Of a DNA stretch of 64,000 nucleotides, positions 18,001 through 33,000 are shown piece by piece. A program made the position numbers. The stretch is taken from the NCBI RefSeq assembly GCF_021869535.1, contig NW_026262723.1:34100001-34164000 (forward strand), read 5' to 3'. This stretch comes from Mytilus californianus. Taxonomy: Eukaryota. The stretch's first letter is position 1. Each line of letters starts with the position of its first letter.

Positions 18001-21000
18001 GAACAGCGACTCTTTTCACAAAAAATCTTACGACTAAAATTGATCGTAAGTTATACTGAAATGTGTATGACTTACGAGTATATTTACTGTTAAGATTTTT
18101 TGTGAAAATAGCCGCAGATCTTTTAACTTACAATAAAATAGAAAGATACCCGATGATAAATCAAAGAACCCATTAGTGTCTTAAGAAAAATACACGTTTC
18201 GATTTTTTTGCTGTTGACGTCTCTGTACTAACATTGTGATATAGATTGACATCGTGTCTCATATCTCAACATTATCCCGAGGTAAAAGTGATGTTAAAGA
18301 GAAAAGTAAATGTGTATGAGTTTGTATTTGCATGTGAAATATGGTACAATTTTTCTATTTTTGAATAATCATATTATTTCTTGTTTTAATACTCATTATT
18401 TCAGGAACTTCAAACGCTGACTGGATAATTTATACACTTTGTATTTCTAGTTGTTTCTTTCTTACTGGCTTTGGTCACTTGTTTCGTACATACAGAAAGC
18501 GACGATCACTTAAAGTAAGAATCATCAATGAAAAGGTTGTCCCAGAACCTTTAATTGCAATACTCATAGAAGAAGACCCTATATTAATACTGAACGAATA
18601 ACAATGAGATGAAGAACAACGATCAAGAGTTGTTGACGTATTTTCTAAACTATGTTGAAGTTCTTCCTTTAATCACAAAGTGATTACAAATTGTTCTAGA
18701 GTTGTCTCTCTTTGTCTGTTGTTAATTGTAATTCACAAATACCAAAATTAAAATACTACAGACTTTCTGTATATTATACTCATTTGTGTAGAGGTTCCAT
18801 CCTCTGTTTTTCCTTTATAACTTTTACAACTTATACAAAAACAATCATTCTAATTACACATACATTTTATTACACCAACTTGTATTTACATTTCCATGAC
18901 TAGAATATACATTTTTACTTTGTGGCATTACTTTGGCTACAGAGTATTCTATAATATTTTGTTGAGGCGCCAGGGTGACTACCGATTACCTATACACAAT
19001 GGCTATCAGCTGACCTATGTTGACATAGTGTCATAAAACCCCTGGTAGTTAAACACGGTTACACCACCACCTACCATGGGGAGTGACCGGGGAAAACACT
19101 CGTATTACCAATGCTCCAGTTATTAGTGCCCCACCTGTTGGCAGGTGTAGGCCTCCCCTCTATAAGATGAGGTGGATGAGGTCCCAGAGTTACCCATCTG
19201 TAGACCCCACCGTTACCACTAACCACATTTTCCAAACCTGCAAATTGTAGAACTTGTCAGGCCCAGAGCAAGGGCCGAGTGAAATAATCCCCCAATCACT
19301 ACCAGTCTCCCTGGACCGCCACATGAGAGCCCAAGTCAGCTACCAAATCTGACTTGGGTTCTCACCTCCACAAATTTACATTATTGAAGCATTGGAAAAG
19401 TTGTTGTGCGTAGGAAAGACTCAACCCCTCCTTGTATATTATTTAAGAAAACCTGATTTCCAGTTTGTGATAAATGAGTTCCATCTGTTCTGTATAAAGA
19501 CCCTTCACTTGCCCTAATGTTCTCATGTAAAATAGCTTTCCCCCCATTTTCTATTACAAAGTTTTTGACCACTGAATTCACTCTTTTTCTCTTCTGTTCG
19601 ATTATTGCACCCGCATTCAAGGGTGCAAAATGCCAGTATCTGCGCTGTAGCATTGAAGACCATATTATAATAACATTTTTAAATAAAGCCTGGTAACGTA
19701 GGATAGAACATTTTACATTTTCAATTAAACTATTCCCTGTCAATTCTAAATCTGTCAAATCATTAGCTCCACAGTGAATAATAATAAAATTAGGAGAAGG
19801 TAAAAATTTTCTTTTTGCATCCAGTACGGAGTCTAAATCTTTAATCTGTAAACCAGGTTGCCCAATCCAGTATGTTGTAACACCTTTGGACTCCCAGGTT
19901 GGTCCTTCCATATTTCTTCGCCTCTACATTGGCCCAATGAACAAGGGAACTTCCAACAATCCATAAAATCTTGGGACCTGTTAAAACTTGTAGCTTGTTA
20001 GCCTTTTGAAACTAGAAAAATTGCAACCTAATATAGCGAGAATAAGCATGCGATTTCCATCTGCCTAATTTCATAATTACCTCCTCTGAGACCCCCTGCC
20101 TGGCTAGTTCCGTGGCTCCCTCAATTCTAAAACTATGTGACCTAAAATGACCTTTACTAATATGAAGAAAATGTGAAGCCTTTTCCAGTATACTGCTGAA
20201 TTGGTATCTAGTTAAAGGCATACCATTATAATGAATAAAGAAATCTTTATTATTACAGGTAGGTCGTACCTTTAAGTATTCGTTCGTGAGTTGTATCGGA
20301 CAGTAGTTTTTTCTGTTCTCAGGTATCAATAAAGTAACGGACTTTCCCTTTTGGTCAGTTTTTGACCACCTTACCCTTAGCTCCAGGACTTTTTTCTTAA
20401 CTAAAATATCAGAAATTGTTAAGTTGGAGCCATTTATAACAGACTTAGTTTTTGAAGTAGTGATTTCCCCTACCCTTAGCAAACCAAAGAAGGCAACTGA
20501 AAAAACTACTGAAAATAAAGCAGCTTCATATTTATTCTTACATACTTTATCTAAACAACCTATCATATCTGCTAACAATTGCACTGTAATTGGTGCTCTA
20601 ATGTCATTACGTTTCCCTCCTTGAATTCTTTTTATTCCTTCTAATGCCTTGCCAATTATAAAGAATTTTGTAGTATCCTGTATGCCTTGTATTTTATGAT
20701 GGTATGAAACTCCTGATATATAAGATGATATGGTACCCCCAGAAAGGCCTTGTACTGACAAAAAAGCTATGAAATTTAGCAAATCATTGACTGGCACTGG
20801 CCAATGCTGTTTCAATTTGTAAGATGATCTAAAATTACAAAGTTTCGACAGAGCCAAATTGTATGATTTTTGTGTATTTTTGGACACACCTTGATTGACA
20901 ATATAATCCGCCTCCTGACTTAAATGTTCCAGATCTGTGTTGGAATTTTGGTTGGCCACTGGTCTGCTTCTGGAGCTAGGCTTCTGAACTTCCCCCACTG

Positions 21001-30000: not shown

Positions 30001-33000
30001 ATTAACATTTAATAGGACAGGTTTAAACCTTACATTACAAGAATCTCATTACGAAACTATTGACTTGGTATCTCAAGAGAGACTATCTATTACAACCAGA
30101 TCTGAACATGGTGACACAGGAAACCTCGATCCATATTTCGCAAAAGAAGAGGATGAAAATCACCAATTACACGATCGAACATCACAAACAGAATGTAGTT
30201 CAACTAATTCGTCCAACTCAGACGCTGGGGATCAAGATAATACAGCATATAACAATCTATATCAACCACTTCAGGAGAATTGGCAAGACGATTCACATGG
30301 TTATGAAGTCCCTGTGATGGTTCATAAGTGTATAGAAAGTTCTTCAGAATTTGATGAAAATGCCACAAGTAATTCATATTATAATGTGTTTAAACCGTTG
30401 CCGAACGACTGGCATTTAAAAAGTCCAACATATGAAAACCAGAAGTCCTCAGAAACAAAAGCAGGAAATGATGAGCGATTACTGGTAGATGATTCTTCGT
30501 CTGTATTCAAAACTGGCAATATACATGATTACATTAACATGAATGCCGAATCTAATATATCAATGAACAATTGTGATGCAATGGAATCCTGCAAACCATT
30601 TGATCAAGACAAGATGAAGACAATTGAACAGAAATCGTTTCGTGGTGACTTTGATTCTAAGGAAGAATCAGTGAACACATGTTCAAACAATATATGTTGT
30701 TCTCAGGACGATAACCCTAGTAACTCTAATGCTTGTGATGACGCAAAATCATGTATTTAAATGGTGGTTAGCTATATAGATTATATACACTTATAAACAT
30801 AAATTAACCAGTCGGTGTATAGTATTTACATGTCAACTACTTTTTAGGTTAAATTACGTTTAAGGCATACTTAAGGTATCACCATTATAAGTAATGCCTA
30901 GCATTTTGACATTTGAACATAACTGAAATAACTTATATCTTGAATTTAGAGCATTTCCGACTTCTTTTGTATATACATATTTGTATTTGTATATTTTGTC
31001 ATACAAGTAGTGTCCTTGTTCTCAACTATGAATATCGTGTAGACTAGAAACCACTCGGGAAAATCAAATCTAGAAAATGTTTGTAAATTTACTGATAGAG
31101 ATTTGAAAAAAGTGGGTACATCTCCTTGTAAACGTCTATACAACATTACACACTAGCTTTATTAAGACACAATAAAGACGGGATATAAAATTAAATAATT
31201 CATACCACAAAATATGACGTTCTCTACAAAAGCAACTGCAAAAGATAGGCGCTTTTGTCTGCTGTTCTTAATCTCAGTGCAACAGAAAGGCATTCACATT
31301 TGAACAAAAGCTCATACAGGGCAAGTTTAAGATGCCCTCAGTATTGGTTACTTATATGTTAATAATGCTAATTACAGTTGTCATGTAATATCATGTAAAT
31401 TTGTTTCAGCTCTGTTCGATATGTAAATCCACTCGATTTTAAGCAACGATATAAATAATTCAAAAGTACGATGTATAAATTAGGATATCTGGTAAAATTA
31501 CCAATGTTATAAATTTTAACTAGAAGATTAGGACAAGAATGTTTACAACTACAGGTTACCATCAGGCATTCAACAATTAGAAAACAATTACCATTCAGTA
31601 ATTTGAAATATGATCTGCATAACGACATGTTAAACAATCTAACAGAGGAAACTAAGGGCCTGAATTAAGCAAATGACATCGTTAAACTATTATGACAGAC
31701 GGCAATAAATGACAACCACTAAACCGCACCCTACTGACTTTGGATATTATTAGAACACCTGTGAAAAAATGTTGGAAAGGGCATGATTGATCAGATCAGT
31801 CTTAAACACAAAAACAACCAACAAACAGAAAAGAAACAGATCCAATAGTTCAGCTAATTAAAACGTCGAATTTATTTTTAAACAACATAAACATGTTTTC
31901 TCTATCAAACGGAAAAACACTATTTTAATACACTCACATACGAGAGTATTTGTTATATCTTTCCGTACCCTGTGTATTATTCTTTTCAAAGAAACCAATC
32001 TTTTTTTGGAAATCTAAACTGCAACGTTAGAAGATCTTTGATTACTGCCATTATCTCATAAAGGAAACATGTCACCAGCAGACGATATTTGTATACATAT
32101 AAAGCATGAGTTACTTTCATTTAACATTTTACCTTTCAACTTATGTTATCCGATATCCACTGATGAGTCTTATTCCTTTCATGATTTAATTGATAGAGGG
32201 TTGCTGTTTATTAGTAAAATATTTTCACCCTAGGGTTCCACGTTGTTTCTTCGAAATTTTCACGGACGCCTTAACAGACGGGTTGGTTGACTGTTACAGA
32301 TTATGTGTGTCACAGATGACCACGGATATTTTCAAATAGTCGTAACCACATTCCTGACACCTTTTTCTCGATTGTGACATCCCCGAATGAGACTGATTTC
32401 CAAATTCTTATAAACCATGCAAACCATGAGCAACACAACTGGTGCCACATGTGAAGCAGAATCTGCTTACCCTTCCAGAGCACCCAAGATAATCCCCGGT
32501 TTTTGTGGGATTCGTGGTGCTCAGCATTTAGTTTTTTGGGTAGAGTTTTGTAGAAATGATTTTGTATTTTCGTCGTTTTTTTCTTTTTTGGCAGACTTGT
32601 GATATTCGAATATCACTGTTATCTTCTGCCTGTTTTTTTAATGTGAACGAAACGCAAGTCTGGCATACTAAATTATAAACCTAGTATATCTAATGAGCTT
32701 TTTCAACCACATGCGGAACGTTTTGTTTCGAGGGTATCAAAGGCCAAGTAGTCAGCGATTCTCCACGTGCATGAAATATCATTGGAACGTCCTTTTTCGC
32801 AATTTTATTAATGATAAAATGTTAACAGTATGGAAAGCACTTAAGCTTTTTATTTTGGGGCCACTGAGTCCTATTTAGACGAATCGCACGTCTGGCTTTC
32901 TCCATAATATTTTGCGTATATTTGGTGAGGTTTTGGTTTTATTTGTACATTTTTACTGTTAAGCAACATGTATGATTGTGGGTTTTGATATTACGCTTAG

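What the first reader, a model, noticed from the sequence alone, without database searches (positions are those of the whole stretch)
18405..30760. One ectodomain, two alternative TM+tail exons: tyrosine-rich versus tyrosine-stripped
Seen: two homologous phase-1 terminal exons (18405-24508 and 29805-30760) lie in tandem, and I found no signal, EGF or stalk exons between them. Both join exon 16681-16743 in frame (415 aa without the insertion, or 444 aa). Aligned Tyr motifs of tail b are lost in tail a: SPYI->TPNM, VYDEV->DFSEV, HYETI->HNETI, AYNNLYQPL->EFLKPL, GYEVP->ACEVS, DYINM->DCTNK. Tail a instead has a duplicated GYFDLYFA. Established: YxxM, YxN, YxxP and YxxL/I/V are SH2 docking classes, and Draper/MEGF10-type receptors switch signalling through alternative tails. 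Inference: an activating versus decoy/inhibitory isoform pair made by exon duplication.
Basis: partly seen in the sequence, partly recalled or inferred. Interest (0 to 1): 0.68.

Follow-up and report, generated by a model that had tools for sequence, protein, structure and literature searches.

The report
Mussel receptor gene, two tail exons
A mussel gene for a small membrane receptor carries two old, different versions of its membrane-spanning and tail exon one after the other, but the first version is broken here by a jumping gene, so this copy cannot make the proposed pair of full-length forms.

Summary
The core observation holds. Two homologous phase-1 TM+tail exons (from 18405 and from 29805) follow one set of ectodomain exons (8603-16743). 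Three points change the picture.

1. "Exon a" is split by a 5,235-nt antisense Ngaro-like tyrosine-recombinase retrotransposon (18554-23788). As the DNA stands, acceptor 18405 gives 191 aa, ending in the element. Tail a also has a late frameshift and has swapped a ~43-aa segment for an ~80-aa tandem repeat.

2. Tail a is not tyrosine-stripped: 9 Tyr in 239 aa, against 11 in about 288 for b. The motifs differ, not the Tyr content. Tail b has two ITIM-consensus sites, four YxN, YxxM and YxxP. Tail a keeps only two YFDL and two YFAM, and GYFDLYFA is homologous to b's GNLDPYFA.

3. The a and b tails are two old classes found across four Mytilus species. Three of the six listed Tyr losses are class-wide.

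Alternative last-exon use is plausible as the ancestral state but untested, because no RNA or mussel genomic DNA was reachable. The activating-versus-decoy reading is not supported. The find is of moderate interest, in an uncharacterised, lineage-restricted receptor family.

The parts
8603..8691 (+). Exon 1 of gene 1: start codon and signal-peptide-like N-terminus (MKYQVIF...), donor GTAAGT, ends in phase 2
   Evidence: Local alignment to the N-termini of P0028 and P0013. Sequence and donor. Frame check.
10525..10577 (+). Exon 2: CCYNFE..NGNC motif
   Evidence: tblastn with P0003, E 0.002. Splice sites and frame.
14027..14135 (+). Exon 3: Cys-rich EGF-like module (C-x2-C ... YG-x2-C-x3-C-x-C)
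   Evidence: tblastn E 6e-6 to 9e-11. Weak Pfam EGF_LMN_ATRN match, E 0.028, 15 bits against a cut-off of 27. Frame check.
14540..14604 (+). Exon 4: RCDAKVGC...TTYT, end of the Cys-rich part
   Evidence: tblastn E 3e-6. Frame check.
16681..16743 (+). Stalk exon (Thr/Ser-rich), phase 1 at both ends. Its donor would be shared by both tail exons.
17056..17124 (+). Second stalk-like exon, probably dead. The donor GTAAGT is kept, but CAA stands where the acceptor TAG of the first stalk exon aligns. The nearest AG gives a stop.
   Evidence: blastn 16662-16753 ~ 17037-17134 at 72%. tblastn with P0003 and P0023. Sequence reading.
18405..18553 (+). Tail exon a, first piece: acceptor, TM helix, juxtamembrane RTYRKRR...EPL
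   Evidence: omega against b is 0.41.
18554..23788 (-). Ngaro-like tyrosine-recombinase retrotransposon, 5,235 nt, antisense to the gene, with TTA(A) at both junctions. Minus-strand ORFs: gag-like 22519-23301, RT 21252-22667, RNase H 20920-21354, YR 20012-21016, GDSL/SGNH-like 19381-19923. The host frame stops at 18599-18601.
   Evidence: Pfam RVT_1 1.7e-13, RVT_3 1.5e-5, Phage_integrase 4.3e-9; Lipase_GDSL_2 1.7e-3, below cut-off. Junctions. No terminal repeats found. RT is 94-96% identical to M. galloprovincialis and M. edulis proteins. RT and RNase H lie in different frames compared with a related copy.
23789..24508 (+). Tail exon a, second piece: 239 codons plus TAA. It holds an ~80-aa tandem repeat (23901-24164 ~ 24141-24413, 89.7%).
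24505..24597 (+). Frameshifted remnant of the a-class C-terminus (IIDACGSIEFNKVKSISEEKSKTL...). It is readable only in another frame, because tail a stops early here.
   Evidence: tblastn with P0013. Three-frame reading. a-class C-termini in the alignment. blastn 24516-24592 ~ 30571-30641.
29805..30760 (+). Tail exon b: acceptor, TM helix, 288-aa tail carrying all b-class Tyr motifs except two, stop TAA

Best explanation
The window comes from a Mytilus-type mussel. Gene 1 encodes a small single-pass receptor with four parts: a signal peptide, one Cys-rich EGF-like module, a short Thr/Ser stalk, and one exon carrying the TM helix plus a long tail studded with Tyr motifs.

That last exon is present twice in tandem. 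The two copies belong to two old tail classes of a mussel-restricted family.
- The a-class keeps GYFDLYFAM and has NETINF and ACEV where b has Tyr.
- The b-class has PYIGVYDE, HYETI, AYNNLYQPL, GYEVP, YYNV, TYENQ and DYINM.

Shown: in this DNA the proximal exon a is broken by a 5.2-kb Ngaro-like retrotransposon between codons Leu and Thr. It is further damaged by a frameshift near its end. Splicing 16743->18405 therefore yields only a 191-aa receptor with a 47-residue cytoplasmic stub. Splicing 16743->29805 yields the only full-length product, 444 aa.

Inferred: before the insertion, a and b were alternative last exons that gave one ectodomain two different sets of phosphotyrosine docking sites. 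The insertion may be specific to this haplotype.
For: - Exon chain, phases and lengths.
- Insertion: Pfam domains; exact junctions with TTA(A) on both sides; a-class relatives read straight across the site, EPF-TSSIGDF in P0018 and ESF-TLCMGD in P0007.
- No ectodomain exons between a and b, with working positive controls. An intact exon b can therefore only reach a signal peptide through gene 1's exons.
- Tail a was under constraint for most of its history. dS to b is 0.89 and omega 0.51. The ORF survived neutral substitution in 0 of 4000 runs at K 0.45 and in 2.7% at K 0.1. Its last 30 residues are almost identical to M. coruscus P0020. It is one of only 9 ORFs of 130 aa or more in 64 kb.
- Two classes: the 12 b-class rows form one side of a branch (SH-aLRT 95), and the window's a2 pairs with P0018 (100).
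- Gene models P0002 (M. coruscus), P0007 (M. edulis) and P0012 (M. galloprovincialis) run from an a-class tail into a b-class tail. This is the same order as in the window.
Against: - No transcript evidence for either junction.
- The fused models in other species could have skipped ectodomain exons lying between a and b, so only the order a then b is shown there.
- The region is a birth-and-death cluster. It holds orphan first exons at 1852 and 41688, a dead stalk exon, a dead minus-strand exon 2, and gene 2 with an in-frame TGA. An unused relic exon would therefore not be unusual.
- The internal repeat of tail a gives omega 0.48, not distinguishable from neutral (5.5 synonymous of 17 changes; p 0.10-0.22).
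- Preferential Tyr loss between this a and b is only borderline: 2 of 13 Tyr kept against 103 of 230 other columns, Fisher p 0.045.
- The transposon copy is not pristine, since RT and RNase H are in different frames. The insertion therefore need not be very recent.
Confidence: 0.55

Rival explanations
1. One reading: gene 1 currently makes an activating, tyrosine-rich 444-aa isoform and a decoy or inhibitory, tyrosine-stripped 415-aa isoform by choosing between the two terminal exons.
For: Both acceptors are intact and in the same phase. Six b-type Tyr motifs are replaced in a. Draper-I and Draper-II are a documented precedent for opposite signalling from alternative tails (passages of PMC4503800).
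Against: The 415-aa product cannot be encoded as the DNA stands, because of the stop at 18599-18601 inside the retrotransposon. Tyr density is equal in the two tails. Tail a keeps two YFDL and two YFAM sites. Tail b, not a, carries the two ITIM-consensus sites and has no ITAM or NPxY.
Confidence: 0.1
2. One of the two exons was never a productive alternative. It is a leftover of partial gene duplication or deletion in a fast-turnover cluster. Either a is a relic sitting in the last intron of a gene whose real tail is b, or b is the orphaned 3' end of a neighbour that lost its 5' exons.
For: The window holds several orphan or dead exon copies: 1852, 4013-4060 on the minus strand, 17056-17124, 41688, and gene 2's exon 2 with a TGA. 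Tail a has three lesions. Many family members carry only an a-class tail (P0029, P0020, P0023) or only a b-class tail (P0003).
Against: Both exons kept long open frames, class-specific conserved motifs and intact acceptors at dS 0.89. The order a then b recurs in models from three other species. An orphan b with no way to be expressed should have decayed.
Confidence: 0.3
3. Assembly artefact: two haplotypes or two paralogous loci were stitched into a false tandem.
For: Mussel genomes are highly heterozygous and hemizygous (abstract and passages of PMC7653742).
Against: The copies differ by about 30% in DNA and belong to different old classes, so they are not alleles. There is no N in the window. 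The same order appears in three other species' models.
Confidence: 0.04

Closest known systems
Draper / CED-1 / MEGF10-MEGF11 engulfment receptors, including the Draper-I / Draper-II splice isoforms
   Same: Type I membrane protein with an EGF-like Cys-rich ectodomain and a Tyr-motif tail. Some relatives are labelled MEGF10_11 by their source. Draper-II is an alternative splice variant whose ITIM opposes the ITAM of Draper-I (passages of PMC4503800).
   Different: Only one Cys-rich module instead of an EMI domain plus many EGF repeats. No Pfam EMI or EGF call at the gathering score, either in six relatives or in exon 3. No NPxY and no canonical ITAM in either tail. Here the alternatives would be whole TM+tail last exons, not an internal insert. 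The tails have no Pfam family. Relatives are confined to 66 cluster representatives among 1.84 billion.
Alternative last exons, or alternative TM exons, of immune and adhesion receptors (for example the two alternative TM exons of insect Dscam1; recalled, no call)
   Same: One ectodomain joined to one of two duplicated exons that encode the TM segment. The two exons have the same phase and a shared upstream donor.
   Different: Usage is not shown here, and the proximal exon is broken in this DNA.
Ngaro-like (DIRS-order) tyrosine-recombinase retrotransposons
   Same: Gag-like ORF, RT, RNase H, YR and an extra SGNH/GDSL-type hydrolase ORF after the YR, as described for Ngaro-like elements (passages of PMC9210276; Pfam).
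   Different: No split direct repeats were detected. The GDSL match is below Pfam's cut-off. RT and RNase H are in different frames in this copy.

Membership tests
Draper/CED-1/MEGF10-11 family | N-terminal EMI domain | tested here: not met
   Pfam found no EMI in relatives P0003, P0029, P0028, P0018 and P0013 at E <= 0.1, nor in P0044, P0031 and P0039 at E <= 1. The window's exon 2 (17 aa) is too short to scan. The CCYNFE..NGNC motif is only reminiscent of an EMI domain (recalled).
Draper/CED-1/MEGF10-11 family | Many tandem EGF-like repeats | tested here: not met
   One Cys-rich module only (exons 3-4). The best Pfam match is EGF_LMN_ATRN at E 0.028, 15 bits against a cut-off of 27.
Draper/CED-1/MEGF10-11 family | NPxY motif in the tail | tested here: not met
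   A regex scan of both tails found none; only NPLTF in b.
Draper/CED-1/MEGF10-11 family | ITAM (Yxx[LI] x6-12 Yxx[LI]) | tested here: not met
   None in a or b. YQPL-x10-YEVP in b misses the consensus at the last position. A relative, P0031, touches the Pfam ITAM cut-off (22.6 against 22.2 bits).
Draper/CED-1/MEGF10-11 family | Single-pass type I topology | tested here: met
   Signal-like N-terminus. One hydrophobic stretch followed by RTY(K/R)KR in both tail exons. Read by eye; no predictor was run.
Alternative last exon pair | Two terminal exons with their own acceptors, same phase, one shared upstream donor | tested here: met
   AG precedes 18405 and 29805. Both give the split codon GGA with the stalk exon's donor.
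Alternative last exon pair | Each exon has an intact ORF, a stop and a poly(A) signal | tested here: not met
   b is intact, with AATAAA at 31171. a is interrupted by the retrotransposon and frameshifted near its end. Hexamers follow both stops, but the DNA is 68% A+T, so they carry little weight.
Alternative last exon pair | Transcripts carrying each junction | not testable with these tools
   No RNA data. The short unnamed contigs (P0008-10, P0015, P0019) begin inside the tail exon or read into intron and show no splicing.
Ngaro-like YR retrotransposon | RT/RNase H plus tyrosine recombinase | tested here: met
   RVT_1 1.7e-13, RVT_3 1.5e-5, Phage_integrase 4.3e-9, all above cut-off.
Ngaro-like YR retrotransposon | SGNH-type hydrolase ORF downstream of the YR | tested here: inconclusive
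   ORF 19381-19923 matches Lipase_GDSL_2 at E 1.7e-3, 19.3 bits against a cut-off of 32.9. Its position after the YR fits PMC9210276.
Ngaro-like YR retrotransposon | Split direct repeats (A1 ... B1 A2 B2) | tested here: not met
   No direct repeat of 20 nt or more other than a chance 25-mer. A self-blastn with word 7 at E <= 0.1 found none.
ITIM-bearing inhibitory receptor | [SIVL]xYxx[IVL] in the tail | tested here: met
   b has SPYIGV and SHYETI; a has none. This is a motif match only. Phosphorylation and phosphatase recruitment are not testable here.

The most novel reading that the evidence does not exclude
Mytilus mussels have a lineage-specific receptor family in which one small ectodomain is wired, through a choice between last exons, to either of two anciently diverged TM+tail cassettes. 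The b cassette carries ITIM-like, Grb2-type and PI3K-type sites. The a cassette carries only YxxL and YxxM sites. This would be a paired-receptor logic encoded within a single gene. Transposon insertions that vary between haplotypes would convert the a cassette into a tail-less form, so individuals would differ in which signalling outputs the receptor has.
Probability: 0.2. Interest if true: 0.6.

Novelty: new variant of a known kind. Interest (0 to 1): 0.35.

Why it matters
If the two exons are used alternatively, this would be a compact invertebrate example of one recognition domain coupled to two signalling tails. It would sit in a family restricted to mussels, animals known for extreme structural variation and large immune gene repertoires. 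The retrotransposon also shows directly how a mobile element can truncate a receptor to a tail-less form. As it stands, the case mostly corrects the annotation: the 6.1-kb "exon" is a broken exon, and counting tyrosines gives a misleading picture of how the tails differ.

Tried and rejected
- Pfam on both tails found no family, even at E <= 1.
- I looked for a stalk or other ectodomain exon upstream of b with tblastn and sensitive blastn. Only intron homology turned up, at 17433-17603 ~ 28940-29110 and 18230-18400 ~ 29608-29800. The first of these also matches inverted at 29290-29449, so it may be a repeat.
- I looked for terminal repeats of the retrotransposon and found none.
- Short unnamed contigs as possible cDNA evidence showed no spliced forms.
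- I considered the transposon being spliced out as an intron. The only good cryptic donor I saw by eye (AAA|GTAAGA near 18513) has no in-frame acceptor after the last stop before 23780. This was not computed and I dropped it.
- I compared the a-tree and b-tree groupings of the four loci that have both tails. The supports (80-89) are too weak to test co-inheritance.
- Literature searches found no description of this family: Mytilus + MEGF10 (8 papers, all expression or immunome surveys judging by the listing); Mytilus + ITIM + cytoplasmic tail (0 papers); MEGF10 + bivalve + expansion + hemocytes (4 papers).
- The spliced model was never joined for a search. Every search used single exons.
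Full report
WHAT THE WINDOW IS

The window is AT-rich (about 32% G+C) and has no N. The proteins closest to the region's ORFs all come from Mytilus mussels: M. coruscus, M. galloprovincialis, M. edulis and M. californianus. The reverse transcriptase of the inserted element is 94-96% identical to M. galloprovincialis and M. edulis proteins. I therefore take the source to be a Mytilus-type mussel. 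Nothing here is human.

THE GENE

Relatives found with the tail exons served as guides for tblastn and local alignment. With them I placed five upstream exons on the + strand:
- E1 8603-8691, signal-like MKYQVIF...
- E2 10525-10577, CCYNFE..NGNC
- E3 14027-14135, a Cys-rich EGF-like module
- E4 14540-14604
- the stalk exon 16681-16743

Every junction is AG/GT, the exons have no internal stops, and the phases fit. The five exons total 379 nt. Adding exon b (29805-30760) gives 444 aa. Adding exon a with the insert removed gives 415 aa.

It keeps its donor but has CAA where the acceptor AG should be, so it looks dead.

THE TWO TAIL EXONS

The homology is real.
- blastp E-values are 8e-18 and 5e-24, and no other ORF in the 64 kb matches.
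- DNA identity is 74.7% over the TM part and 66.9% over the tail.
- The similarity continues about 175 nt into the upstream intron.

No ectodomain exon lies between the two exons. Eleven ectodomain queries gave nothing better than E 0.039 in 24509-29804. The same queries found the exons of gene 1 and gene 2 at E 5e-3 to 9e-13. The interval holds transposon debris and interspersed repeats.

The stretch 18554-23788 carries these ORFs on the minus strand:
- a gag-like ORF
- RT (RVT_1, 1.7e-13)
- RNase H (RVT_3, 1.5e-5)
- a tyrosine recombinase (Phage_integrase, 4.3e-9)
- a GDSL/SGNH-like ORF (E 1.7e-3, below cut-off)

This is the gene content described for Ngaro-like elements of the DIRS order (passages of PMC9210276). 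I found no split direct repeats.

The element sits exactly between the codons for Leu (18551-18553) and Thr (23789-23791), with TTA(A) at both junctions. a-class relatives read straight through this point.

Relative to a related copy that has one RT-RNase H ORF (P0080), this copy has the two parts in different frames. It is therefore not pristine.

The consequence for the host gene is that reading from 18405 meets TAA at 18599-18601. The product would be 191 aa: the ectodomain, the TM helix, 32 native cytoplasmic residues and 15 residues encoded by the element.

FURTHER CHANGES IN TAIL A

1. Other a-class tails end ...KYAESEKTIDACG...SEEKSKT(F/L). Here the frame stops after KYAESEK, and the rest (24505-24597) is readable only in another frame.
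2. An ~80-aa unit is tandemly duplicated (23901-24164 and 24141-24413, 89.7%). The repeat stands where P0020 has a ~43-aa segment that includes the NIYSNV site. Similar repeats occur in M. galloprovincialis P0018.

IS TAIL A A DEAD EXON?

Not for most of its history.
- a against b gives dS 0.89, dN 0.46 and omega 0.51 over 243 codons.
- Under substitutions alone, the 239-codon frame survived in 2.7% of 4000 simulations at K 0.1, 0.1% at K 0.2 and none at K 0.45.
- The last 30 residues are nearly identical to M. coruscus P0020.
- Only 9 ORFs of 130 aa or more exist in the window. Five are in the transposon and two are the tails.

Recent constraint cannot be shown. The internal repeat pair gives omega 0.48 from 17 changes, which is not significantly below 1.

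TYROSINES

The a2 piece has 9 Tyr in 239 aa. The tail of b has 11 in about 288 aa. The densities are equal.

Of b's 13 Tyr, 2 are kept in a, against 103 of 230 other aligned columns (Fisher p 0.045). For the tail alone the figures are 1 of 11, p 0.053.

The stronger evidence is comparative. I aligned 12 b-class and 16 a-class tail rows plus one unclassed row, from the window and four Mytilus species.
- The b-class rows are one side of a branch (SH-aLRT 95), and the window's a2 pairs with P0018 (100).
- I left the 48-aa a1 piece out of the tree and the five unnamed Logan proteins out of the alignment.

Columns that are Tyr in b and their state in a:

| Column | b-class rows with Tyr | a-class rows with Tyr |
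|---|---|---|
| HYETI | 11 of 12 | 0 of 14 (Asn in 10) |
| GYEV | 12 of 12 | 0 of 14 (Cys in 12) |
| TYENQ | 11 of 12 | 0 of 12 |
| DYINM | 10 of 10 | 1 of 11 |
| second Tyr of YYNV | 10 of 12 | 0 of 14 |
| PYIG | 10 of 12 | 6 of 12 |
| VYDE | 12 of 12 | 6 of 13 |
| AYNN | 11 of 12 | 7 of 13 |

Both classes keep GYxDxYFA. The a-class has its own Tyr at QEY (12 of 13 rows) and NKY (7 of 10 rows).

The other three are shared by a subgroup. GYFDLYFA is a shared motif, not a replacement.

Motif scan:
- Tail b has two ITIM-consensus sites (SPYIGV, SHYETI), four YxN, one YxxM, one YxxP and six Yxx[LIV]. It has no canonical ITAM and no NPxY.
- Tail a2 has only two YFDL and two YFAM.

What these motifs bind is established knowledge of SH2 classes. 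Nothing about binding was tested here.

THE SAME ARRANGEMENT ELSEWHERE

Gene models P0002 (M. coruscus), P0007 (M. edulis) and P0012 (M. galloprovincialis) run from an a-class tail into a b-class tail. P0018 (a-class) and P0006 (b-class) are listed with the same longest-contig length (466689), which suggests, but does not show, that they share a contig. This shows the order a then b in other species. It does not show that no ectodomain exons lie between them, because predictors can skip exons.

I could not fetch any mussel genomic DNA.

Other family members have a single tail after a full ectodomain: P0029 with an a-class tail and P0003 with a b-class tail.

The family is small and restricted. 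It has 66 cluster representatives at E <= 1e-3 among 1.84 billion, and 46 at <= 1e-10.

CONTEXT

The window is a cluster in flux.
- Extra first-exon copies lie at 1852 (degenerate) and 41688 (intact but orphan).
- A dead exon-2 copy lies on the minus strand at 4013-4060.
- A second gene, 52943 to beyond 63854, has an in-frame TGA in its exon 2.

Mussel genomes are reported to be rich in hemizygous structural variants (abstract and passages of PMC7653742). The insertion may therefore be specific to this haplotype. I could not test this.

VERDICT

The structural observation is right in outline and wrong in three particulars: one exon, tyrosine-stripped, and 'instead'.

The most likely account is an old pair of alternative last exons from two tail classes, with the proximal one disabled here by a retrotransposon. 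Only the b form is then full-length, and a tail-less 191-aa form is possible. The main rival is that one of the exons is an unused relic of partial duplication. The activating-versus-decoy labels have no support, and on motifs b looks the more inhibitory of the two.

The protein fails the membership tests for the Draper/MEGF10 family (no EMI, one Cys-rich module, no NPxY, no ITAM), although it may work along similar lines.

I found no paper describing this family. The spliced model was searched exon by exon only, and the joined protein was never built or searched.

Noticed in passing
window 41688-41776 (+): An intact orphan copy of the signal-peptide first exon (MKYQLIVLLYCGIRN..., 89 nt, donor GTAAGT). 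It lies 11 kb upstream of gene 2's own first exon. No exon 2-4 copies follow it before 54.2 kb. It could be an alternative first exon or a relic.
   Followed up: partly
window 1852-1950 (+) and 4013-4060 (-): A degenerate first-exon copy without a GT donor, and a minus-strand exon-2-like piece (VVCCYNYE) with a stop. Both are further relics of the same family.
   Followed up: partly
window 52943-63854 (+): A second paralogous gene: E1 at 52943, E2 about 54201-54252, E3 at 56626-56739, E4 about 57805-57842, stalk about 63805-63854. Its exon 2 has an in-frame TGA (NYE*INGMC). Its TM+tail exon lies beyond the window.
   Followed up: partly
window 17056-17124 (+): A tandem duplicate of the stalk exon with its acceptor lost (CAA for TAG). 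Relatives such as P0026 carry two stalk repeats in series, so stalk exon number varies in the family.
   Followed up: partly
window 16269-16456, 25486-25723, 42868-43057, 44694-44921, 56841-56975: An interspersed repeat of about 185 nt in five copies, 80-89% identical (SINE- or MITE-like). One copy lies between the two tail exons.
   Followed up: no
window 43235-43948 (+); 27825-28856 and 49276-50395: A 237-aa open frame with reverse-transcriptase-like motifs (FLIDNIFVEFGG...GIPMGTNCAPLLADLFL) and no Pfam hit at E <= 0.01. Degenerate related copies exist, one of them between tail exons a and b.
   Followed up: partly
window 59192-59624 / 59731-60162: A tandem duplication of about 433 nt at 93.8% identity, with further partial copies near 61415-61590, inside the long intron of gene 2.
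   Followed up: no
window 17433-17603 vs 28940-29110 (+) and 29290-29449 (-): The intron segment upstream of exon a matches two places upstream of exon b, in opposite orientations. It is either part of the old duplication or a foldback-type repeat.
   Followed up: no
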